A stretch of 64,000 bases of DNA. Origin: an uncultured Candidatus Binatia bacterium (GTDB taxonomy: Bacteria > Desulfobacterota > Binatia > Bin18). The stretch lies in contig OZ243961.1 of NCBI GenBank assembly GCA_965214605.1, positions 1,103,008 to 1,167,007 on the forward strand, read 5' to 3'. The notes below the pieces were generated by a model that was not told the origin of the DNA, ran no database searches, and saw nothing but the letters and a program-made list of their open reading frames with translations. Position numbers and translations under genes: made by a program. This document shows, one piece after another, positions 25,458 through 54,985 of the stretch; positions within the stretch are counted from its first letter, which is position 1; each line of letters opens with the position of its first letter.

Positions 25458-26114
25458 TCAGGGACGCCTCCGACGCTGGCTACGGCCCTGGTGGGGACGT
25501 TGAAAGGCCAACACCCGATGCCCATGTCGATACTGGGTGACCAGCGTGGCTAGGGTCTCACGATCGATCAGAATACAATCCTCACGTCGAGCTAGCGTCC
25601 GGGCACGGAGACTAAACGGTTGGTTAGCCAGCACCAGCGCGCCGTCACACCCCTGGTCCTGACTAGCGGTCAGTGCCTCAATGACCACGTTTTCCGTCAG
25701 CGGTCTAGTGTGTCGGAACACACGGCCTAGCAGCCGGTCGGCGCCTCGGGTCAACAAAACATCGGCCCCGGGCGAGTTAGACCGGACCAGCGGAGTAACC
25801 TCATAGCCCTGGGCCCGCAACAGGTCGGCCGCATAGCGAGAAAACTCGGTATCCGACATGCTGTCCAGCTCGTGCAGCCGCTCACTCCGCTCACGTTGTC
25901 GCGTATAGCTCTTCCACACAATCCAGATACCGAGCCCACCGCCCATCCACACCAGGGCACTTATCCAGTTGCCCTGGAGGGCGGAGGTGGCAAAGACAAA
26001 AAGCAAGAAGAGCGCGGTGCCTTTGATCAGACGCGTCCGGGTAGTCTTTCCCGGCCGTGCCTTGTGGCTGAGTTCAACAGCGCGGGACGGTTCCTGCATA
26101 GCTTCCTCAGACAA
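25458..26114 (-). CDS. membrane-anchored restriction-endonuclease-fold (Mrr_cat-like) protein
   Basis: Two N-terminal TM spans. Then EFSRYAADLLRAQGYEV...GADVLL...LIDRETLATLV resembles the Mrr catalytic-domain layout. The usual (E/Q)xK position reads VFR, so activity is uncertain. Confidence 0.55.
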   Translation of the reverse strand: MSEEAMQEPSRAVELSHKARPGKTTRTRLIKGTALFLLFVFATSALQGNWISALVWMGGGLGIWIVWKSYTRQRERSERLHELDSMSDTEFSRYAADLLRAQGYEVTPLVRSNSPGADVLLTRGADRLLGRVFRHTRPLTENVVIEALTASQDQGCDGALVLANQPFSLRARTLARREDCILIDRETLATLVTQYRHGHRVLAFQRPHQGRSQRRRRP

Positions 26115-26200
26115 GACGGTCAGTTATTACACGACTATTAGCCAGATATCCCAGCAGGAGAAAGAAATCAATCGGGAAAACAGAGACACGTGCTCGCGGG

Positions 26201-27124
26201 TCAGCATTGTGTCGTCAGCACGACCCCACCAATCACTAAGAGTGTTCCAAACACATGGACGGCGGTGATCTGCTCACCAAGAAACACTACTGAAAACACG
26301 AGCACGATGACCGGAATGAGATTCATGAACACGGCCGCCCGATGTGGGCTGATATGCGTCAGGGCTTGATAGTACAACAGATTGGTCAGTGGCGAGAGGA
26401 CACACAAATAGGACACAGCCGCAATCAAAATCGGACTGTACTCAAAGGCGGGCTGGAACGGCTCCTCAAAGAAAAAGACCGGGAGCAAAACTACTGAGCT
26501 CACCAGGTAGGCGCTGGCCGTCGCCGCAGTGGGCGAGCGCTGGCGTAAGGCAATCCGGCTATAGACAGTATACACCGCCCAACTGATCTGGCCGATCAGG
26601 ATCAGTACGTCACCCCAGTTGAACGAGCGCTGGAGCAGATTTTCCACCGACCCCTGACAGATGATGGCCACCAGGCCGATGGAGGACAAGACGACTCCGG
26701 CGACGTTGAGCAGACTGAGTTTCTCCCTCAAAAACAGCCAGGACAGCAAGGTCACCCAGATTGGCGTTGCGGCGGCCAAGATGCCGGCGTTGGACGACGT
26801 CGTCATCTTCAGCCCAACATAGAAAAGCCCGCCCGAAGCCAAGACCCCGCTAAAGGCCATGATCAGACTACTCTTGGGGTCTTTGCGGATTTCACGCCAC
26901 CAGTCCGGGTCTGACTGCCAGCCTAGGAGGTTGAGGACCAGGGCTCCAAATATTGTCCGGACGGCCATCAGAGTGAAAGTTCCGACCAGGGTCAGAGCGA
27001 ATTTTCCGGCCGGGAAATTCCCAGCCCACAGACTGATGACACCGATGAGCAGGAGGTAAGCCACAGGCGAGCCGATGTCCTTTCTGGCGGCGGTGTGGGG
27101 GAAAAGGTATATGCTGGCTGGCAC
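26201..27124 (-). CDS. DMT superfamily (EamA-like) transporter
   Basis: Ten hydrophobic spans in two EamA-like halves. Confidence 0.85.
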   Translation of the reverse strand: MPASIYLFPHTAARKDIGSPVAYLLLIGVISLWAGNFPAGKFALTLVGTFTLMAVRTIFGALVLNLLGWQSDPDWWREIRKDPKSSLIMAFSGVLASGGLFYVGLKMTTSSNAGILAAATPIWVTLLSWLFLREKLSLLNVAGVVLSSIGLVAIICQGSVENLLQRSFNWGDVLILIGQISWAVYTVYSRIALRQRSPTAATASAYLVSSVVLLPVFFFEEPFQPAFEYSPILIAAVSYLCVLSPLTNLLYYQALTHISPHRAAVFMNLIPVIVLVFSVVFLGEQITAVHVFGTLLVIGGVVLTTQC

Positions 27125-27162: not shown

Positions 27163-28770
27163 TCAGCCGTCTTCGAGGTCGGCCACAATCTCGGTCAGCC
27201 AGCGCGGATCAAGTTCGGGAACAGAGGCCACGAGCCGCTCGGTATAAGCGTGCTGGGGACGGGTCAGTACCTCGCGGACTGGACCGCGCTCTACAATACG
27301 GCCTTGGTGCAGGACGAGCACCTCGTCGGCCAGAGATTTTACCACGCTTACATCGTGGCTGATGAATAGATAGGCCAGGCCAAGCGCTTTTTGTAACCCC
27401 TGGAGGAGCCGCACAATCCCCTCGGCAACAACAGGATCAAGCGCCGAGGTTACCTCATCACACACGACGACATCGGGTCGGGCCGCCAGGGCACGGGCGA
27501 TGCACAAGCGCTGCTTTTGGCCGCCCGAGAGTTCGGTGGTCCGGCGCCCGGCAAAAGCGGCGGGCAGCTCAATCATGTCTAGCAGTTCGGCAACCCGCTT
27601 TTGCCGGACCCGACCTCTTAGTCCAAAATAGAATTCCACCGGCCGGCCAAGGACGCGGGCGATCGTGTGGCGGGGATTCAGTGCCACATCGGGCATTTGG
27701 GAGATCAGCTGCACCCGGCGCAGGGTGTCACGGCTGCGTTGGGTGTAGGACGTAGGGAGCGGCTGGCCGTCAAAGATCACAAGCCCTGACTGAGTTGGCA
27801 GCAGGCCGCTCACTACCCGGGCCAGCGTACTCTTGCCGCTGCCGGACTCCCCGACCATAGCGACGGTCTTTCCACGTTGGAGACAAAAACTGAGGTTGTC
27901 AAGAACAGGGGTTCCGGGGCGATAGCTCGCCCGCAAGTTCTGGCACTCAAGCACGACCGAGCTTGGGCGTCGAGACTGGCTGACCGTCCGTCGACGCCAG
28001 GTGGCAAGCAAGCGACGAGTATAAGCGCGTTGCGCTCGGTTAAGAATATCTGGAGTGGACCCTTCTTCAACAACACGGCCGTGACGTAACACGGCGATCC
28101 GGTCTGCCAGCTGGGCGACTAGCGCCAGATCGTGACTAATGTACAGCGCGGCGGCACTGCGAGACCTGATGATCTTCTTGATCGTCACCAGGACCGCGAT
28201 TTGAGTCGTCGCATCCAGGGCCGCAGTCGGCTCATCAAAAATGATGAGCTCAGGGCGGCCCGCCATAGCCATCGCTAGCATGGCACGTTGGAGCTGGCCA
28301 CCAGACACTTGATGCGGATAGCGCGTGCCGATTGTCGGTGGCAGGGCCAGCTGGGCGTACAGCCGGGTGACGCATTTGCGTGCCTCACGGGGGGAGAACA
28401 GACCGTGTTCGAGGGACGGCTCAATACACTGGGTCAGCAAGCGATGGGCGGGATTAAAAGACGCCGCCGCGCTTTGTGCAACATAGGCAATCCGGCTCCC
28501 ACGGAGCTCGCGCAACTCAGCCTCGACCAGCGTATGGAGATCTCGTCCATCAAAGACGATGGAGCCCCCTGCAATACGGCAGCCGGTGCGACTATAATAC
28601 ATAGCGGCCAGACCAAGTGTCGACTTGCCAGCTCCAGACTCTCCGATGATACCGAGCACTTCTCCACGATCAATGTGCAGATCAATCCCGTGTAGGATGG
28701 TCTGTCGTTGGCTGGCAACCCCTTCGACCTGTAAGTTGCGGATAGTGAGGAGGCGTTCCGACATCGTCAT
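27163..28770 (-). CDS. ABC transporter ATP-binding protein with duplicated ATPase domains (peptide/nickel Dpp/Opp type)
   Basis: Two Walker A sites (GESGAGKS, GESGSGKS), two LSGGQ signatures and two Walker B/D-loops in 535 aa. Confidence 0.9.
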   Translation of the reverse strand: MTMSERLLTIRNLQVEGVASQRQTILHGIDLHIDRGEVLGIIGESGAGKSTLGLAAMYYSRTGCRIAGGSIVFDGRDLHTLVEAELRELRGSRIAYVAQSAAASFNPAHRLLTQCIEPSLEHGLFSPREARKCVTRLYAQLALPPTIGTRYPHQVSGGQLQRAMLAMAMAGRPELIIFDEPTAALDATTQIAVLVTIKKIIRSRSAAALYISHDLALVAQLADRIAVLRHGRVVEEGSTPDILNRAQRAYTRRLLATWRRRTVSQSRRPSSVVLECQNLRASYRPGTPVLDNLSFCLQRGKTVAMVGESGSGKSTLARVVSGLLPTQSGLVIFDGQPLPTSYTQRSRDTLRRVQLISQMPDVALNPRHTIARVLGRPVEFYFGLRGRVRQKRVAELLDMIELPAAFAGRRTTELSGGQKQRLCIARALAARPDVVVCDEVTSALDPVVAEGIVRLLQGLQKALGLAYLFISHDVSVVKSLADEVLVLHQGRIVERGPVREVLTRPQHAYTERLVASVPELDPRWLTEIVADLEDG

Positions 28771-28970
28771 TGAGTATCACACTGAAAATTTTGATTGATC
28801 AACACCTACCCACAGCATTGTCACCGGTTCATCCTCGTTTGAGCTCGCAGCCGGGATATCTGAAACTGCTGACCTCCGGAAAATAGACCTATTAGCTGTT
28901 TCCAATTGCCCAGACCGGGATCGTTCGGTCAGCTGCGCAAGCGATTTGAGCTGAACGACCAGTTCGAGGA

Positions 28971-29567
28971 GTGACTGGTGTGGAGCCATCCCCCGAGGTG
29001 TTTCGTCTGACCAGCAGTAAATGCAAGGCCAAATACCTCCGGAAACTCAGCACAGAGCATCTGTCCTGCGAGGTGCTAAAGCTGACAGACATTCGCAATC
29101 CAGATAAAAGTCGAAGATCGCTCAAGCTCCTCCAGATAGAAAACCCAGGCTTGCTCAATGAATTGGCCAGCTCGCTTGAGATGAGCAAGGAGATCGTCAC
29201 ACAAGATCTTGATCTCTTGGAAAAAAGCGGCGAACGCCTCAAGCCCCATGCGTTCGTATTTTTGGCAAACGTATACCGCAAAGCTGATAGCGACGCCGGT
29301 GAGGAGTCACAGGTCAGCTTGTCTGGTTTTGCGCTCAAATTCGCCTGTAAGCAGGTCCGCAAACCTGATACTTTTTCGGAGTACCAAGGCGCGATGTGGG
29401 AAGCTATGAACAGAGAAAATTGGCTTTCTTTCACCCTCGGCGTACAGAAGGCGACCCCTACACCTGGGAAAAGAGGCTCCACACAGGCGTGCAATAGGCG
29501 GCCCGCCTCTCTCAGTTATGAGTCGAACCGCCCGTTGAGGGCGATAACCAGTCAACAACCAGATTGA
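28971..29567 (+). CDS. hypothetical protein, possibly wHTH-like, in a low-GC wedge antisense to the ABC operon
   Basis: 198-codon ORF with balanced composition. The segment SLKLLQIENPGLLNELASSLEMSKEIVTQDLDLLEKSG looks helix-turn-helix-like. The start codon is uncertain and the 3' end overlaps the permease stop. The antisense 200-aa ORF is Ser/Arg/Leu-rich and less protein-like. Confidence 0.3.
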   Translation: MTGVEPSPEVFRLTSSKCKAKYLRKLSTEHLSCEVLKLTDIRNPDKSRRSLKLLQIENPGLLNELASSLEMSKEIVTQDLDLLEKSGERLKPHAFVFLANVYRKADSDAGEESQVSLSGFALKFACKQVRKPDTFSEYQGAMWEAMNRENWLSFTLGVQKATPTPGKRGSTQACNRRPASLSYESNRPLRAITSQQPD

Positions 29568-30339
29568 CGCCGACCGTGAGTAGCGCAATCGCGGCGGCCG
29601 GAAAAAACGGGGCCGCTAGTCCAAACGGAATCGCCCCCGCGTTTTCGCGGACCATAGTGCCCCAATCGGCCGTCGGTGGCTGAATGCCTAGGCCAAGAAA
29701 ACTGAGCGAACTGATAAACAGGAATACAAAGCAAAAGCGCAGACCAAATTCTGCCAGTAGCGGTCCAAACGTATTGGGCAACATCTCGTAGCGGACGATC
29801 CACCACCATCCCTCACCCCGCAACCTGGCCAACTCGACAAACTCCATCACCGCCACGTCCAGGGCCAGGGCTCGCGATAACCGGAAGACACGGGTAGCGC
29901 TCACCAGGACGCTCACCAGGACGACGGTCGCCGTCGAAGGGTTCAAAATCGACAGCAGCACCAAGGCGAGAATGAAGCTGGGAATAGCCATCAATACCTC
30001 AACCACCCAGCTGAACAACGTATCGAGCCAGCCGCCAATAAGGGCGGCCGAGGAGCCGGCGACAACGCCGAGGACGAACGCCAACAGAGTCGTGAGCAGG
30101 GCTACTGAAACAGTATTGCGAGCGCCGTACAATAAACGCGACAACAGGTCTCTGCCAAGCTGATCCGTTCCAAACAACGCCGAGCGGCTTGACGCCTCCC
30201 ACACATCACCGATGACCTCGGTTTCGCCATACGGAGCCAGCACCGGGGCCAGCACCGCCGTCCCGAGGTAGACGACAATCAAGCTCAAGCCAAGTCTAGC
30301 GCTCAGCGGCACGGCTACGAGACTACGCAAAACAGACAT
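29512..30339 (-). CDS. ABC transporter permease (DppC/OppC type)
   Basis: Six TM spans and an EAA-like loop (VELARLRGEG). Confidence 0.9.
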   Translation of the reverse strand: MSVLRSLVAVPLSARLGLSLIVVYLGTAVLAPVLAPYGETEVIGDVWEASSRSALFGTDQLGRDLLSRLLYGARNTVSVALLTTLLAFVLGVVAGSSAALIGGWLDTLFSWVVEVLMAIPSFILALVLLSILNPSTATVVLVSVLVSATRVFRLSRALALDVAVMEFVELARLRGEGWWWIVRYEMLPNTFGPLLAEFGLRFCFVFLFISSLSFLGLGIQPPTADWGTMVRENAGAIPFGLAAPFFPAAAIALLTVGVNLVVDWLSPSTGGSTHN

Positions 30340-30341
30340 GG

Positions 30342-31295
30342 CTAGCTGCTCTGACGCAGCCGAGGATTACTCAGCATGACCAACACATCGGCTGTGAGGT
30401 TAAGCACCACGTACACCGAGGCAAAAATTAGGCCGCACGCCCGCACCACCGGTAGGTCACGTTTGGACACCGCGTCGACCAACAGCTGACCGAGTCCGGG
30501 ATAAACGAACACCACCTCGACCACCACCACCCCGACGATCAAGAAGGCCAGGTTTAGGACAATGACGTTCATAATCGGCGACACCGCGTTGGGCAGGGCG
30601 TGGTAGACAATAATCCGGCTCGGAGACAGCCCTTTGAGCTGAGCCATTTCAATATACGAACTCCGCAGCAAGTTCAGAATCGCCGCTCGGGTCAGCCGTA
30701 CCATATGGGCGCTGACGACCAGGCTGAGGGTCAGGACCGGTAGACTGAGGGCGTACAGTTTGTCGGCCAGCGACATACCGGGAGAGATAATCGACACCGC
30801 CGGAAAGACGTGCAGCTGGACCGCAAAGACGGCCGTGACAAGATAGGCGATAAAAAAATCCGGCAGCGAAATCGTGCCCAGGCTAATAATCGACAGGACT
30901 TTATCAATCCACCTCTCGCGGTACACCGCGGCCACAACGCCCAGGCTCAGGGCCAACGGAACCGCAATCAACGCGGTCACCGCCGCCAGCAACAGGGTGT
31001 TGGCCAAACGCCCACCAATCAGTTCGGTCACCGCTCGCTGATTAGCCAGCGAGGTGCCGAGGTCGCCACGGACAAGAGCTGTCAGCCAGTCGAGGTAGCG
31101 GACATGCGGCGGTTGGTCTACACCTAGCTGGCGACGCAGGGCGGCGACCGTGTCGGGCGTTGCCGACTGGCCCAGCACCGCTTCGGCTACATCACCCGGC
31201 AGGACCTCCAGCCCAAGCGATAGGATAAGCGAGATGACAAACAGGGTCAGCAGGCCAAGGGCCAGCCGTTGGGCGATCAAGGCCCGCAGATTCAT
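30342..31295 (-). CDS. ABC transporter permease (DppB/OppB type)
   Basis: MNLRALIAQRL start at 31295 overlaps the SBP stop as ATGA. YIEMAQLKGLS is the EAA loop. Confidence 0.9.
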   Translation of the reverse strand: MNLRALIAQRLALGLLTLFVISLILSLGLEVLPGDVAEAVLGQSATPDTVAALRRQLGVDQPPHVRYLDWLTALVRGDLGTSLANQRAVTELIGGRLANTLLLAAVTALIAVPLALSLGVVAAVYRERWIDKVLSIISLGTISLPDFFIAYLVTAVFAVQLHVFPAVSIISPGMSLADKLYALSLPVLTLSLVVSAHMVRLTRAAILNLLRSSYIEMAQLKGLSPSRIIVYHALPNAVSPIMNVIVLNLAFLIVGVVVVEVVFVYPGLGQLLVDAVSKRDLPVVRACGLIFASVYVVLNLTADVLVMLSNPRLRQSS

Positions 31296-32878
31296 GGCCC
31301 GCCGTTCTCCCGTGCCCACCACCAGCGCTCGGCACACTTGCCGCCGTCAAGCTCCCGATGGCTGGCTAACTGTCCGAAGCGCAGCCGCCGGTCGACGGCA
31401 CACACATCGGCGGCAAACAGCGGAATAATAGCCCCACCCTCATCCCGCACAATAGCCTGCATCTCGGCGTACTGCTCAGCGCGTTTTCGCTCGTCCAATT
31501 CCGCCTGGGCGGATCTCAGCAGCCGATTAAACCGTGGATGGCTAAAATGTGTGTCGTTCCAGGCCGCACCTTGGGCATAAGCGGTTGCAAACATCAGACC
31601 TACGGTCGGCTGGCCGTTCCATGAACACACGCAAAAGGGCTTTTTGAGCCACACGTTTTTCCAATATCCATCGGCCGGCTCGCGGACGATCTCGATAGGA
31701 ATACCCGCCTTTGCGGCGTGTTCCTGATACAGCACAGCTGTATCGACCGCGCCGGGAAAAGCGGCCTCCGAGGTGCTCAGCCGCAGAGCTGAAGAGCCCA
31801 GCCCGGCGCGCCGCATATGAAACCGGGCGCGGTCCGGATCGTAGCGCCGCTGTGCCAGGTGGGCGGCAAAATAGCGCTGCCCGTTCCTGATCGGATGATC
31901 ATTACCAAGGCTGCCATAGCCGCGCAAAATGGTGCGTAACAGGGCCTCTCGATCTATGGCATATTTGAGCGCCAGGCGCGCATCGACATTATCAAACGGC
32001 GCGACATCGGTATGCATGGCCAGAGAGTAGTGTTTCGTCCCACGGGTTTGCAGCACCTGAATGCCGGGCAGGCGTTTCAAGAGATGCAGGGTTTTCAGCT
32101 CGCAGCGGTTGATGACGTTAACCTGACCGGTTTGCAGGGCGGCGGTTCGAGCGTTCACATCGGAAATGGCCAGCATTTCTATTGTCTCAAAGTGAGCACG
32201 GCCGGTCTTCCAGTAGTTGGAATTCCGCCGGGTCAGCGAGCGGACGCCGGGCTCAAACTGAACCAATTGATAGCCACCGGTCCCCAGGCCGGTCGTGACA
32301 TCGCTGCGGTGAGGCTGAATCGTCAGGTGCACGTCGGCCAGCACAAACGGAAAATCGGCCTGACTGTCCTTGAGATCAAAGATCACCCCAGCCTTCCCAT
32401 CCGGACGGATGCGGCGAATGTTGTCCAGCAAACTTTTTACCGGCGAGATCGAACTCTCGCCCCGATGATGGTTGATCGAGGTGACCACATCGACGGCCTC
32501 AAGGGTTTTGCCGTTGTGAAACTCAACACCCCGTCGCAGTCGAAAGTACCATACTCTGGCATCCGAAGAGGCGTCCCAGCTCTCGGCCAACTCGGGTCTG
32601 GGCTCACCCTGTTCGTCTATCTCGACTAGAGTATTACGTAACTGGCCAAAAGACAGCAGGGTCATAAAGGCGTCTGATATACGGGCCGGGTCGAGCGAGT
32701 CGCTAGTGAAGCCACCCGAAATCCCCATCCGTAATTGACCGCCTTTCTGCGGAGTGATGGCACGCGCCTGAGCCAACAGTTCGGGGGCGGCCGAGGCCAG
32801 CCCTAGGGCCGCGACCGAGGCTAAGAACTGCCGACGGGACAGCGGGCTTGGAGCGGACGTGGCGGTCGACATAGGCAT
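31292..32878 (-). CDS. ABC transporter substrate-binding protein, family 5 (peptide/nickel), with Tat-type signal
   Basis: The N-terminus has SRRQFLASVAALGLA (twin-arginine motif). 528 aa with family-5 SBP architecture. Confidence 0.9.
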   Translation of the reverse strand: MPMSTATSAPSPLSRRQFLASVAALGLASAAPELLAQARAITPQKGGQLRMGISGGFTSDSLDPARISDAFMTLLSFGQLRNTLVEIDEQGEPRPELAESWDASSDARVWYFRLRRGVEFHNGKTLEAVDVVTSINHHRGESSISPVKSLLDNIRRIRPDGKAGVIFDLKDSQADFPFVLADVHLTIQPHRSDVTTGLGTGGYQLVQFEPGVRSLTRRNSNYWKTGRAHFETIEMLAISDVNARTAALQTGQVNVINRCELKTLHLLKRLPGIQVLQTRGTKHYSLAMHTDVAPFDNVDARLALKYAIDREALLRTILRGYGSLGNDHPIRNGQRYFAAHLAQRRYDPDRARFHMRRAGLGSSALRLSTSEAAFPGAVDTAVLYQEHAAKAGIPIEIVREPADGYWKNVWLKKPFCVCSWNGQPTVGLMFATAYAQGAAWNDTHFSHPRFNRLLRSAQAELDERKRAEQYAEMQAIVRDEGGAIIPLFAADVCAVDRRLRFGQLASHRELDGGKCAERWWWARENGGP

Positions 32879-53235: not shown

Positions 53236-54189
53236 ATGCCACGCTGTGACGATCTCAGCATTACCGCTCTTGCTGGAGGGGTGGGTGCCGCCCGTTTCTT
53301 ACGTGGCCTAGTACGTGTCATCAATCCGGCCAATCTGAGTGTGGTGGTGAACACTGGCGATGATGACGAATTTTTTGGCCTATACGTGTCTCCAGACCTC
53401 GATACCATCACCTATACGCTCGCCGATGCTGTCGACCATGACAAAGGCTGGGGTCTGCCGGACGAGAGCTTCCACTGTCTTAGCGGGTTGAGACGCTATT
53501 ATCCCGAGACCTGGTTTAGTCTGGGTGACGCCGACCTAGCGACCCACCTGTTTCGGACTCAGCAGCTGAGACAAGGGCACACCCTGAGCCAAGTCACCGC
53601 CGCTATTGTCCAAGCCTGGGACGTGCGCGCCACGGTCTTACCGATGAGCAACGATCCGGTCCGGACGGTGGTCCACACCGAAGCGGGTGCTCTGCCGTTT
53701 CAGGAATATTTTGTCAAAGGTCGGGGTGAAGGTCGGGTCGAACGCATCGAGTTACGAGGGCTGCCGGACGCCCGCCCGGCGCCGGGCGTGTGTGAGGCGA
53801 TCCAGTCTGCACATTTGGTGATTCTCCCGCCCAGCAACCCGTTGGTGAGCATCGGGCCTATTCTCGGCCTACCTGGCGTCCGCGACGCCCTGCGCCAAAC
53901 CCCAGCGTTGGTTGTCGGCATCAGTCCATTGGTAGCCGGTAAGCCGATTAAAGGGCCGGCCGACCGTATGCTCAGTGGCCTCGGCATTGAAGCCTCGGCG
54001 ACTGGAGTGGCCGGCCTGTACGCCGACTTTCTGGACGCTTTCGTGATCGATACGCAAGATGCGGCTCAACGGGCCAGACTTGAAGCCCAGGGGCTGATGG
54101 TTCGGGTAACCGATACAATTATGAGTGATATGGAGAAATCAATTGCCCTGGCCCGGACGGCTGTTGAACATATGAAACGTGAAACATAG
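53236..54189 (+). CDS. cofD: 2-phospho-L-lactate transferase
   Basis: ITALAGGVGAARFLRGL N-terminus and NTGDD motif typical of CofD/FbiA. Confidence 0.9.
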   Translation: MPRCDDLSITALAGGVGAARFLRGLVRVINPANLSVVVNTGDDDEFFGLYVSPDLDTITYTLADAVDHDKGWGLPDESFHCLSGLRRYYPETWFSLGDADLATHLFRTQQLRQGHTLSQVTAAIVQAWDVRATVLPMSNDPVRTVVHTEAGALPFQEYFVKGRGEGRVERIELRGLPDARPAPGVCEAIQSAHLVILPPSNPLVSIGPILGLPGVRDALRQTPALVVGISPLVAGKPIKGPADRMLSGLGIEASATGVAGLYADFLDAFVIDTQDAAQRARLEAQGLMVRVTDTIMSDMEKSIALARTAVEHMKRET

Positions 54190-54232
54190 GAGGGATATCT
54201 CCTAGGCCGCTGTATCCCCGAAGGATTCTAAT

Positions 54233-54985
54233 ATGAGTACGATCGCACTCATCCCTATCCCCGATATTCCCCAAATTCAACCCGGTGACGATCTGGTCTC
54301 GCTCCTTCTCGACGCGATTGATCGGTCCAAGGTCGGCCTCAAAAACGGCGATATTCTGGTTATGTGCCAAAAAATCGTCTCCAAAGCCGAGGGTGCAGTG
54401 GTTGATTTGAAGACCGTCGAACCTTCGTCTTTTGCCCACCAGATTGCAGACCAGTGGGAAAAAGACCCCCGTATCGTCGAGGTTGTGCTACAGGAGAGCA
54501 AGCGGATCGTGATGATGAAAAATGGAGTAGTGATAACCGAAACAAAACAGGGCTGGGTGTGTGCTAACTCGGGAGTCGATGCGTCAAATACCCTAGCCGA
54601 CGATATCGTCATCGTCTTGCCTAAAGATCCTGACCGGTCGGCCAAAAGCATGCGGGTCGCTATTCAAGAACGCCGCAATATTTCGATCGGGATCGTTATC
54701 ACCGATACCTTTGGCCGTCCGTGGCGTGACGGTCTGGTCGAGTTTGCGCTGGGCGTCTCGGGATTTGAGGGCCTGCTTGACATGCGCGGCAGTGAAGACC
54801 TCCAGGGCCGAGAACTGCACCATACCATCGTCTCGGTTGCTGACGAACTCGCCTGCGCCGCCGGCCTGCTGATGGAAAAGAACGCGGCCGTACCGGCCGT
54901 GATTGTTCGTGGTTACAAGTACACTCCGGCCGAGGGCAGCGGACAGGTCTTGATCCGGCCGGCCGAGGCGGATTTGTTTCGCTAA
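54233..54985 (+). CDS. cofE: coenzyme F420-0:L-glutamate ligase
   Basis: PIPDIPQIQPGDDL..., GDILVMCQKIVSKAEG and ITDTFGRPWR motifs. 250 aa stand-alone (archaeal-type) form. Confidence 0.9.
   Translation: MSTIALIPIPDIPQIQPGDDLVSLLLDAIDRSKVGLKNGDILVMCQKIVSKAEGAVVDLKTVEPSSFAHQIADQWEKDPRIVEVVLQESKRIVMMKNGVVITETKQGWVCANSGVDASNTLADDIVIVLPKDPDRSAKSMRVAIQERRNISIGIVITDTFGRPWRDGLVEFALGVSGFEGLLDMRGSEDLQGRELHHTIVSVADELACAAGLLMEKNAAVPAVIVRGYKYTPAEGSGQVLIRPAEADLFR

What the first reader, a model, noticed from the sequence alone, without database searches (positions are those of the whole stretch)
28771..29511. Low-GC ~740-bp wedge splits the permease and ATPase genes of a peptide-type ABC operon
The SBP, permease 1 and permease 2 genes are joined by ATGA or 2-nt junctions. 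Permease 2 (ending 29512) is then separated from the fused ATPase gene (starting 28770) by 741 bp of visibly lower GC.

The wedge contains a 198-codon ORF on the opposite strand with a helix-turn-helix-like stretch (SLKLLQIENPGLLNELASSLEMSKEIVTQDLDLLEKSG). It also holds a 70-codon same-strand ORF (28777-28989) ending 6 nt before the ATPase ATG. The + ORF and its 200-codon antisense partner share wobble positions, so GC3 cannot tell them apart. Amino-acid composition favours the + strand.

This could be an inserted orphan regulator, a small mobile cassette, or a lineage-specific operon component.
Basis: partly seen in the sequence, partly recalled or inferred. Interest (0 to 1): 0.5.

Follow-up and report, generated by a model that had tools for sequence, protein, structure and literature searches.

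The report
Dead defence-candidate gene inside ABC operon
The low-GC 741-bp gap between the permease and ATPase genes is the decayed remnant of a foreign, opposite-strand "phage defence candidate" gene (PDC-S01) that is still intact at the same spot in a close relative, so it is an ordinary pseudogene and not a new regulator.

Summary
A 741-bp stretch (28771-29511, GC 0.517 against 0.588 for the window) separates permease 2 from the fused ATPase, and it is the lowest-GC 741-bp stretch in the window.

The interpretation needs correcting. The wedge is a pseudogene. In a close Binatia relative (L085) the same junction carries an intact 393-aa gene on the opposite strand. That gene has Pfam AAA_14 + DUF4143 and matches PADLOC candidate PDC-S01 at E=1.7e-144.

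The wedge aligns to that gene at 76-80% nucleotide identity. It lacks about 420 bp (the gene's promoter plus codons 1-90, with Walker A and B) and 188 bp of the nuclease core. It also carries three in-frame stops and several frame-shifting indels.

The 198-codon + ORF is the longest open remnant. Its "HTH" is the family's winged-helix segment. Substitutions on the window branch look neutral (14 synonymous, 30 non-synonymous or stop), against 11:2 in the intact copy.

Another close relative (L082) has a clean 62-bp spacer. Across 141 related operons the median spacer is 32 bp.

The 70- and 200-codon minus-strand ORFs are antisense shadows. This is an ordinary gain, decay and loss of a solitary low-GC candidate defence cassette.

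The parts
28771..29511 (.). The wedge as a whole: low-GC (0.517) non-operon DNA between the permease 2 stop and the ATPase start
28771..28784 (-). Retained ~14-nt native leader of the ATPase gene (AGTGTGATACTCAA). It is homologous to the leader in L085 and L082. The 5' deletion junction lies here, with GTATCA microhomology.
   Evidence: window 28726-28784 matches L085 2434-2376 at 89.8%
28774..29228 (+). Pseudogene segment A, corresponding to codons ~91-244 of the PDC-S01 (AAA_14/DUF4143) gene: the end of the AAA_14 domain, the linker and the winged-helix segment. It is 80.5% nt identical to the intact L085 gene. Indels are +4, -8, +1, +4, -1 and -6.
28884..28886 (+). In-frame stop (TAG) replacing the ancestral Trp codon
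28893..28895 (+). In-frame stop (TAG) replacing the ancestral Gln codon
28972..28974 (+). In-frame stop (TGA) replacing the ancestral Arg codon (CGA)
29229..29251 (+). Short remnant (codons ~301-308, GERLKPH) lying between a 168-nt in-frame deletion (codons 245-300) and a 20-nt deletion. Together these remove the conserved DUF4143 nuclease core.
29252..29489 (+). Pseudogene segment B, corresponding to codons ~315-393 (C-terminal part). The blastn piece that contains it (window 29252-29571) is 75.9% nt identical to L085. It carries small frame-shifting indels (+2, -3, +2, -1, +2, +1, -1), and the ancestral stop TGA has mutated to TGC.
29490..29511 (.). Short spacer between the former gene end and the permease 2 stop, homologous to the 21-nt spacer in L085
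28971..29567 (+). 198-codon ORF: the longest open remnant of the pseudogene. It starts 1 nt out of the ancestral frame and regains it at the -1 deletion at 28986. It overlaps the permease 2 3' end in antisense by 56 nt. Gene callers call it as 195 aa (P0001).
28777..28989 (-). 70-codon ORF antisense to pseudogene segment A. No family hit and codon score -0.15. Judged spurious.
28892..29494 (-). 200-codon antisense shadow ORF, rich in Ser, Leu and Arg. Codon score -0.22 and no family hit. Judged spurious.
29512..30339 (-). Permease 2 of the peptide/nickel-type ABC operon (flank)
27163..28770 (-). Fused double ABC ATPase (flank). It is intact and 86% identical to the orthologues in L082 and L085.

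Best explanation
The wedge is a pseudogene. It is the fossil of a solitary, horizontally acquired, low-GC gene cassette (its own sigma-70-like promoter plus one ORF of ~380-390 aa). The cassette encodes an AAA_14 P-loop ATPase, a winged helix and a DUF4143 domain (PD-(D/E)xK nuclease superfamily). This is COG1373, which PADLOC lists as phage defence candidate PDC-S01.

The cassette sat on the strand opposite to the operon, in the only non-overlapping spacer of the operon. Its 3' end faced the permease 2 stop and its 5' end faced the ATPase start.

In the window's lineage it was inactivated and is decaying (all shown):
- A ~420-bp deletion between two GTATCA microhomologies removed its promoter and codons 1-90, which hold Walker A and Walker B.
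- Deletions of 168 nt and 20 nt removed the conserved nuclease core.
- Three stop codons and several frame-shifting indels accumulated.
- Substitutions are spread neutrally over the codon positions.

Nothing in the wedge is expected to make a working protein (inferred).

Its only likely present-day effect is passive (inferred). The ATPase gene now lies about 0.74 kb downstream of permease 2. It must be transcribed by read-through across the relic, because the same deletion also removed the divergent spacer that lies upstream of the ATPase in the L085-type arrangement.

The most parsimonious history is inferred: one insertion before the split of the window, L082 and L085 lineages, retention in L085, decay here, and clean deletion in L082.
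For: Homology to an intact gene at the same site:
- In relative L085 (ATPase 86% identical), an intact 393-aa gene lies at the same junction on the opposite strand, with Pfam AAA_14 and DUF4143.
- tblastn of that protein against the wedge gives E=7e-34, in two blocks (aa 89-244 and 302-393), with in-frame stops.
- blastn shows window 28774-29228 matching gene nt 272-732 at 80.5%, and window 29252-29571 matching the gene's 3' end, the spacer and the permease 2 end at 75.9%.

Family assignment:
- The L085 protein hits Pfam DUF4143 (9.3e-42) and AAA_14 (4.7e-26), and PADLOC PDC-S01 at E=1.7e-144 over its full length.
- The window's 198-aa ORF hits PDC-S01 at E=7e-10 (aa 8-86 to profile 162-240).
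- The frameshift-corrected translation hits PDC-S01 at E=1.1e-32.
- An exhaustive HMMER search of 1.84 billion representatives independently places ORF residues 8-86 at residues ~164-246 of ~380-aa proteins. The four checked carry DUF4143, and three of them also AAA_14.

Loss of function:
- Of 43 invariant family positions, 19 are deleted, 8 are substituted and 16 are kept.
- Polarised with L086 as third taxon, the window branch has 14 synonymous, 27 non-synonymous and 3 stop changes. The L085 branch has 11 synonymous and 2 non-synonymous (Fisher p=0.001). The winged-helix part inside the ORF has 5 synonymous and 11 non-synonymous.
- Differences per codon position are flat (0.127/0.175/0.210), against 0.102/0.055/0.258 for the adjacent ATPase.

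Foreign origin:
- The intact L085 gene has GC 0.531, against 0.62-0.63 for its flanks. This explains the low-GC wedge.
- The ORF's codon score (0.01-0.05) lies between native in-frame (0.29 +/- 0.10) and off-frame (-0.34).

Presence and absence in relatives:
- L082, the syntenic closest relative, has a 62-bp spacer.
- L082 and L085 are closer to each other (permease 2 nt identity 93.5%) than either is to the window (87-88%).
- The spacer between gene end and permease 2 stop is homologous in the window and L085.
- The same cassette (65-nt promoter plus ORF) sits at other sites in other Binatia (L086 88% aa identical, L087 82%).
Against: - The 198-codon frame is still open. Part of this looks like compensation: the 168-nt deletion is in frame, and -20 followed by +2 restores the frame.
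- A GAGGAG lies 8 nt upstream of the GTG at 28980, so gene callers call the ORF. Low-level translation of a fragment cannot be excluded.
- The order of events is inferred from only three genomes: a single ancestral insertion followed by loss in L082, against two independent insertions.
- L082's spacer keeps only a 7-nt TCACCCC that may or may not be a scar of the gene end.
- No expression data exist for either strand.
- How the ATPase is transcribed (read-through or a new promoter inside the relic) was not determined. The sigma-70 scan found no minus-strand promoter or terminator inside the wedge, but Binatia promoters may differ.
Confidence: 0.93

Rival explanations
1. The 198-codon + ORF is a live, domesticated mini-protein: a winged-helix regulator cut out of the former PDC-S01 gene, which now regulates the ABC operon or other genes.
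For: - The frame is open for 198 codons.
- There is a weak Pfam HTH_11 hit (E=0.014).
- The winged-helix block is the best preserved part (71.6% aa identity over aa 164-244).
- A Shine-Dalgarno-like GAGGAG lies upstream of the GTG at 28980.
- The ORF is called as a gene in an ENA metagenome assembly.
Against: - The cassette's promoter is deleted.
- Substitutions in exactly this block look neutral (5 synonymous, 11 non-synonymous), against 5:0 in the intact copy.
- Invariant winged-helix residues are lost: A211 deleted, S219L, T233I, Y237D.
- The ORF begins out of the ancestral frame, contains out-of-frame stretches and runs 56 nt into the antisense of permease 2.
- There is no second genome with it among 5.8 billion and 1.84 billion proteins, apart from the same strain.
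- AlphaFold gives pLDDT 39.8.
- The codon score is far below that of native genes.
Confidence: 0.04
2. The window and L085 acquired the cassette independently at the same spacer (an insertion hotspot). L082 never had it, and the window's copy decayed afterwards.
For: - The spacer takes unrelated inserts in other Binatia: 4958 bp with ParA, a ribbon-helix-helix protein and a NERD-like gene in L003, and 249 bp in L005.
- The cassette is clearly mobile between sites (L086, L087, L088).
- PDC-S01 identity between L085 and L086 (88% aa) is higher than that of housekeeping neighbours between the window and L086 (59-79%).
Against: - The window and L085 share orientation and a homologous 3' junction and spacer.
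- The relic's divergence from the L085 gene (76-80% nt) fits the flank divergence (86-87%) plus relaxed constraint.
- L082's spacer keeps TCACCCC where L085 has the gene end TCACACCC.
Confidence: 0.15
3. The relic has been exapted as a cis-acting element. It now supplies the promoter or 5' UTR that drives the ATPase gene separately from the permeases.
For: - The ATPase is intact and presumably needed.
- The deletion removed the L085-type upstream spacer, so some sequence in the relic must serve if read-through is insufficient.
Against: - No minus-strand sigma-70-like promoter was found in the wedge.
- There is no Rfam hit.
- There is no conservation to test.
- No terminator is predicted on the minus strand inside the wedge, so read-through is the simpler option.
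Confidence: 0.1
4. The wedge is a small mobile element (MITE or IS fragment) or a structured non-coding RNA.
For: Low GC and lineage-specific presence.
Against: - There are no terminal inverted or direct repeats.
- There are no other copies in the 64-kb window.
- No Rfam family scores above noise.
- The homology to a protein-coding gene accounts for essentially the whole length.
Confidence: 0.01

Closest known systems
PADLOC phage defence candidate PDC-S01 (Pfam AAA_14 PF13173 + DUF4143 PF13635; COG1373 'predicted AAA+ ATPase')
   Same: - The wedge derives from a member of this family. The ORF hits PDLC04789 at E=7e-10 and the corrected translation at E=1.1e-32.
- The intact copy at the same site in L085 hits at E=1.7e-144.
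- As described for PDCs, the cassette is solitary and not in a defence island (10.1101/2024.01.29.577857).
- PDC-S01 is described as an ATPase fused to a PD-(D/E)xK-superfamily domain (PMC12988326).
- DUF4143/COG1373 is listed in the PD-(D/E)XK superfamily (PMC3424549).
   Different: - The window's copy is dead. It has no promoter, no start, no Walker A or B and no nuclease core, and it has stops and frameshifts.
- The family itself is only a candidate. [quoted passage not shown]
Winged-helix transcription regulators (for example Pfam HTH_11)
   Same: The stretch SLKLLQIENPGLLNELASSLEMSKEIVTQDLDLLEKSG aligns to HTH_11 positions 16-45 (E=0.014). The same region of intact family members also hits HTH_11, at E=4.5e-4 to 8.9e-6.
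   Different: - The score is below the Pfam cut-off (15.7 against 25 bits).
- In this family the winged helix is an internal module of an ATPase-nuclease, not a stand-alone regulator.
- Invariant residues are mutated.
Other inserts at the same operon spacer in Binatia (L003 island with ParA, a ribbon-helix-helix protein and a NERD-like gene; L005 249-bp insert)
   Same: They occupy the same permissive spacer between permease 2 and the ATPase, and they have lower GC than their flanks.
   Different: They show no sequence similarity to the wedge. Their gene content is unrelated.

Membership tests
PDC-S01 / AAA_14-DUF4143 (COG1373) | Significant match to the family profile | tested here: met
   - PADLOC PDLC04789: E=7e-10 for the 198-aa ORF and E=1.1e-32 for the frameshift-corrected translation.
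- phmmer hits to ~380-aa family members.
- 76-80% nt identity to an intact member.
PDC-S01 / AAA_14-DUF4143 (COG1373) | P-loop ATPase with Walker A (GPRQxGKTT) and Walker B (DEAQ) | tested here: not met
   Codons 1-90 are deleted. Family positions G26, R28, G31, K32, T33, T34, D82, E83, A84 and Q85 are absent. Only the last ~45 positions of AAA_14 are detectable (E=0.0046).
PDC-S01 / AAA_14-DUF4143 (COG1373) | DUF4143 domain (PD-(D/E)xK superfamily core) | tested here: not met
   - Codons 245-300 and ~308-314 are deleted. This removes the invariant F245, N256, R258, E260, F269, D271, G273, R275, N276, R288, G292, W295, E296 and Y309.
- R320 is changed to Q and E326 to D.
- Pfam DUF4143 is not detected in the ORF or in the corrected translation.
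PDC-S01 / AAA_14-DUF4143 (COG1373) | Uninterrupted ORF of ~375-395 aa with its own promoter | tested here: not met
   There are three in-frame stops and several frame-shifting indels. The conserved TTGACA...TAATAT promoter block seen in L085, L086 and L087 is deleted.
PDC-S01 / AAA_14-DUF4143 (COG1373) | Anti-phage activity | not testable with these tools
   The family is a prediction by guilt-by-embedding (10.1101/2024.01.29.577857). [quoted passage not shown]
   - HTH_11 scores 15.7 bits against a cut-off of 25.
- The ORF is found only in this strain.
- The substitution pattern is neutral.
Component of the peptide/nickel (Dpp/Opp-type) ABC operon | A homologous gene at this position in orthologous operons | tested here: not met
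   141 related operons have a median spacer of 32 bp. The closest syntenic relative, L082, has 62 bp and no ORF.
IS element / MITE | Terminal inverted repeats, target-site duplication, multiple copies or a transposase | tested here: not met
   There are no inverted or direct repeats and no other copy in the window. No transposase or integrase domain was found in the ORFs.

The most novel reading that the evidence does not exclude
PDC-S01/COG1373 cassettes (a ~65-nt promoter plus one ORF, with no integrase, transposase or terminal repeats) may be self-mobilising selfish units. On this reading they use their own ATPase, winged helix and PD-(D/E)xK nuclease to home into short spacers at the 3' ends of convergent genes.

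The window, L085 and L082 would then show one site in its relic, occupied and empty states.

This would recast one of the most abundant 'defence candidates' as a mobile element, or as both.

The evidence here is limited:
- Near-identical cassettes sit at different chromosomal sites in Binatia, including two spacers of the same neighbourhood.
- All four contexts examined are tail-to-tail with a convergent gene.
Probability: 0.07. Interest if true: 0.6.

Novelty: new member of a known kind. Interest (0 to 1): 0.15.

Why it matters
The practical value is for annotation. A gene caller reports a 195-aa hypothetical protein here (P0001), and it is a pseudogene fragment.

The locus is also a clean small example of the turnover of a solitary candidate defence gene. 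Three close relatives show the same site with the gene intact (L085), decayed (window) and absent (L082). This fits the rapid gain and loss described for defence genes.

It also shows that the only untranslated spacer of a translationally coupled ABC operon tolerates repeated foreign insertions in Binatia.

It does not open a new biological question by itself.

Tried and rejected
- **Rfam scan of the wedge:** only noise, with E above 2.
- **Repeat search and self-BLAST:** no terminal repeats and no second copy in the window.
- **Pfam on all six ORFs:** only a sub-threshold HTH_11 hit.
- **Word-indexed search of 5.8 billion proteins with the 198-aa ORF:** it found only the ORF itself and missed the family. 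The exhaustive HMMER search found the family.
- **AlphaFold single-sequence model of the ORF:** pLDDT 39.8, unusable, so no fold search was run.
- **tblastx and blastn of the wedge against 80 GTDB loci:** nothing, because the intact homologue is not in a species-representative genome.
- **Remnant of an operon gene, such as a second ATPase:** rejected, with no similarity to any operon protein.
- **L002, L003 and L005 spacers as relics of the same cassette:** rejected, with no tblastn hit of the 393-aa protein at E up to 1.
- **JGI metagenome scan with permease 2:** no close relatives, best 59% identity. It was used only for the spacer-length background.
- **NCBIfam:** only weak P-loop similarity to RFC for the intact protein, and nothing for the ORF.
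Full report
**1.

The minus strand carries a peptide/nickel-type ABC operon:
- SBP, 31292-32878
- permease 1, ending at 30342
- permease 2, 29512-30339
- a fused two-domain ATPase, 27163-28770

The SBP and permease 1 genes overlap as ATGA. Permease 1 and permease 2 are 2 nt apart.

Permease 2 and the ATPase are separated by 741 bp. The figure is 747 bp if the second ATG at 28764 is the real start, which gene callers chose for the identical protein P0002.

The wedge has GC 0.517, against 0.588 for the window. It is the lowest-GC 741-bp stretch in the 64 kb: 0.4% of sliding windows are as low, and all of them overlap the wedge (profile).

Two short-read metagenome contigs from ENA sample ERZ21849000 reproduce the sequence. 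L001 is identical across 28908-29511, and L084 is 99.9% identical from 28913 downward. The wedge is therefore not an assembly artefact.

**2. First-pass searches gave little**

- Rfam found nothing above noise.
- No repeats flank the wedge, and it has no second copy in the window.
- Pfam gave only a sub-threshold HTH_11 hit for the 198-aa ORF (E=0.014, 15.7 bits against a cut-off of 25) and nothing for the minus-strand ORFs.
- The word-indexed search of 5.8 billion proteins found only the ORF itself (P0001, 195 aa).
- A single-sequence AlphaFold model was unusable (pLDDT 39.8).
- A codon-usage score trained on 36 long ORFs of the window put the + ORF at 0.01-0.05. This lies between native in-frame genes (0.29 +/- 0.10) and off-frame sequence (-0.34 +/- 0.23). 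The 200- and 70-codon minus-strand ORFs score -0.22 and -0.15.

**3. Orthologous operons**

The nearest species-representative genomes are Candidatus Binatia MAGs, with 70-81% permease 2 identity. Their spacers between permease 2 and the ATPase vary:
- L004: 58 bp
- L066: ~57 bp
- L002: 112 bp
- L005: 249 bp
- L003: 4958 bp

The L003 insert carries a ParA-type ATPase, a ribbon-helix-helix protein, a NERD-like 521-aa protein and two unknown ORFs. None of these spacers resembles the wedge.

Across 141 related operons from genomes and metagenomes, the median spacer is 32 bp. Only L003 and L085 exceed 300 bp. Large inserts at this junction therefore appear only in Binatia. They occupy the one junction of the operon that is not translationally coupled.

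**4. The key comparison**

Searching with the ATPase found two closer relatives, P0003 and P0004, each 86% identical.

P0003 lies on L082, a 409-kb contig that is syntenic over the whole neighbourhood. There the spacer is a clean 62 bp.

P0004 lies on L085, a 4.7-kb Logan contig. There the same junction holds an intact 393-aa gene on the opposite strand, annotated with Pfam AAA_14 and DUF4143.

tblastn of this protein against window 28701-29620 gives E=7e-34. It matches in two blocks (aa 89-244 and aa 302-393), both on the + strand, with stop codons inside the alignment.

At DNA level:
- Window 28774-29228 matches gene nt 272-732 at 80.5%.
- Window 29252-29571 matches the gene's 3' end, the 21-nt spacer and the end of permease 2 at 75.9%.
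- Window 28726-28784 matches the ATPase start plus 14 nt of leader at 89.8%.

**5. Anatomy of the relic**

Relative to the L085 arrangement, the window shows four kinds of damage:
- **5' deletion.** About 420 bp are missing: 149 nt of the divergent spacer plus codons 1-90. The junction falls in a GTATCA that is present at both break points.
- **Internal deletions.** 168 nt (codons 245-300, in frame) and a further 20 nt are missing.
- **Small indels.** These are +4, -8, +1, +4, -1, -6, +2, -3, +2, -1, +2, +1 and -1.
- **Point changes.** There are three in-frame stops (TAG 28884, TAG 28893, TGA 28972), and the ancestral stop has mutated from TGA to TGC.

The 198-codon ORF starts at GTG 28971, one nucleotide out of the ancestral frame. 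It regains that frame at the -1 deletion at 28986. It survives the internal deletions because 168 is a multiple of three and -20 is followed by +2. It then reads past the old stop into the antisense of permease 2.

About 50 of its codons are out of the ancestral frame. My estimate, assuming about 4% stop codons, is that staying open over that length has a chance of roughly 0.1. An open frame is therefore not evidence of function.

**6. Family**

The L085 protein hits Pfam DUF4143 (9.3e-42) and AAA_14 (4.7e-26). It hits PADLOC PDC-S01 (PDLC04789) at E=1.7e-144 over its full length.

The window's ORF hits the same PADLOC model at E=7e-10. The frameshift-corrected translation hits it at E=1.1e-32.

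The exhaustive HMMER search independently aligned ORF residues 8-86 to residues ~164-246 of ~380-aa proteins. The four of these that were checked all carry DUF4143, and three of them also carry AAA_14. Intact members also give weak HTH_11 hits there.

In a 22-sequence family alignment, 43 positions are invariant. The relic keeps 16 of them, has 8 substituted and has lost 19. The losses include the whole P-loop region and the DUF4143 core.

**7. Relaxed selection**

Between the relic and the L085 gene, differences per codon position are 0.127/0.175/0.210. Changed codons split 67 non-synonymous to 33 synonymous. The adjacent ATPase gives 0.102/0.055/0.258 (73:120), and permease 2 gives 29:65.

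Polarising with the L086 copy gives these counts:

| Branch | Synonymous | Non-synonymous | Stop |
|---|---|---|---|
| Window | 14 | 27 | 3 |
| L085 | 11 | 2 | 0 |

Fisher's exact test gives p=0.001.

The winged-helix block inside the ORF shows 5 synonymous and 11 non-synonymous changes on the window branch, against 5:0 on the L085 branch. There is therefore no sign that the surviving ORF is being maintained.

**8. Origin and history**

The intact L085 gene has GC 0.531, against 0.62-0.63 for its flanks. The low GC of the wedge is thus inherited from a foreign cassette.

The closest homologues of the L085 gene sit elsewhere in other Binatia-like genomes:
- L086 (88% aa identical) has it between the S-methyltransferase and APRT genes of the same syntenic neighbourhood.
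- L087 (82%) has it between LigB and MatE genes.
- L088 (67%) has it in a sugar-nucleotide cluster.

Homology among the L085, L086 and L087 copies starts ~65 nt upstream of the ORF. It covers a TTGACA...TAATAT promoter-like block and ends near the stop of the 381-aa forms. No flanking repeats or mobility genes are present.

L082 and L085 are closer to each other (permease 2 nt identity 93.5%, ATPase 89.9%) than either is to the window (86-88%). The relic and the L085 gene share orientation and a homologous 3' spacer.

The simplest history is one insertion in the common ancestor, retention in L085, decay here and deletion in L082. L082's spacer reads ...GGTT-TCACCCC-TGAAAAGG..., where L085 has ...TGTT-TCACACCC[gene]...TGAAAAGG. 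Independent insertions into a permissive spacer cannot be excluded with three genomes.

**9. Consequence for the operon** (inferred)

In the L085 arrangement the ATPase is divergent from the cassette and has a 163-bp upstream spacer. In the window, the deletion that killed the cassette also removed all but ~14 nt of that spacer.

No sigma-70-like promoter and no intrinsic terminator is predicted on the minus strand inside the wedge. The ATPase, which is intact, is therefore most simply expressed by read-through from permease 2 across the relic. This has not been tested.

**10. Comparison with what is known**

PDC-S01 is one of 145 'phage defence candidates' predicted by guilt-by-embedding and added to PADLOC (10.1101/2024.01.29.577857).

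It is described as an ATPase fused to a PD-(D/E)xK-superfamily domain and as the fourth most common defence system across prokaryotes. [quoted passage not shown]

DUF4143/COG1373 is listed in the PD-(D/E)XK superfamily with unknown function (PMC3424549).

The wedge is a dead descendant of this family. It fails every functional membership criterion except sequence ancestry.

**11. Verdict**

The object is an ordinary pseudogene.

Novelty is low. The only mildly interesting points are the three states of one site (intact, relic, empty) in close relatives, and the hint that these solitary promoter-plus-ORF cassettes move between intergenic spacers by an unknown route.

Noticed in passing
L003:6832-11789: A different Binatia MAG has a 4958-bp island at exactly the same permease 2/ATPase spacer. 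It encodes a ParA-type ATPase (212 aa), a ribbon-helix-helix ParG/ParD-like protein (83 aa), a 521-aa protein with an N-terminal HTH-like region and a weak NERD nuclease hit, and two ORFs (296 and 178 aa) with no Pfam hit. GC is 0.548 against 0.618 for the locus. No integrase was seen.
   Followed up: partly
L005:6920-6978 and L087:1703-1765: The 249-bp spacer of L005 contains a ~63-nt segment that is 88.9% identical (E=1e-12) to an intergenic segment in an unrelated region of another Binatia-like contig. This may be a small dispersed repeat.
   Followed up: no
L085, L086, L087, L088 (PDC-S01 contexts): In all four contexts examined, the solitary PDC-S01 cassette lies tail-to-tail with a convergent neighbour gene, with its stop 6-146 nt from the neighbour's stop. 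No mobility gene or flanking repeat is present. The mobile unit appears to be ~65 nt of promoter plus the ORF.
   Followed up: partly
L083:1-81: A Logan contig carrying the same ATPase as L082 ends 81 nt upstream of the ATPase. Its first 28 nt differ from L082's spacer, which suggests population heterogeneity or another variant at this junction.
   Followed up: no
L082:1586-2518 and L082:8692-9891: The closest syntenic relative has two genes that the window lacks. One is a 310-aa ORF with no Pfam hit, between the S-methyltransferase and the SBP. The other is a CoA-transferase (PF02515), between EamA and the Mrr_cat gene. The neighbourhood has several indel-prone spacers.
   Followed up: no
window 28755-28790 (minus strand), compared with L004, L005, L003 and L066: In the window/L082/L085 clade the ATPase start lacks a Shine-Dalgarno sequence (…GTGATACTCAATGACG ATG). 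More distant Binatia have GGCGAGGAGC ATG, preceded by a conserved 46-nt block (GGACTGGTCGAGTGAAAAGGCGGGG…).
   Followed up: no
window 26100-26400 and ~53960-54850: These are other locally low-GC stretches (0.51-0.52). One lies at the 3' end of the EamA gene and its downstream spacer, and one lies near 54 kb. They were not examined.
   Followed up: no
method: The word-indexed 5.8-billion-protein search returned only the query's own cluster for the 198-aa ORF. The exhaustive HMMER search of representatives found 23 family members. The Logan protein P0145 shares long exact words with the ORF but was not returned by the word-indexed search.
   Followed up: no
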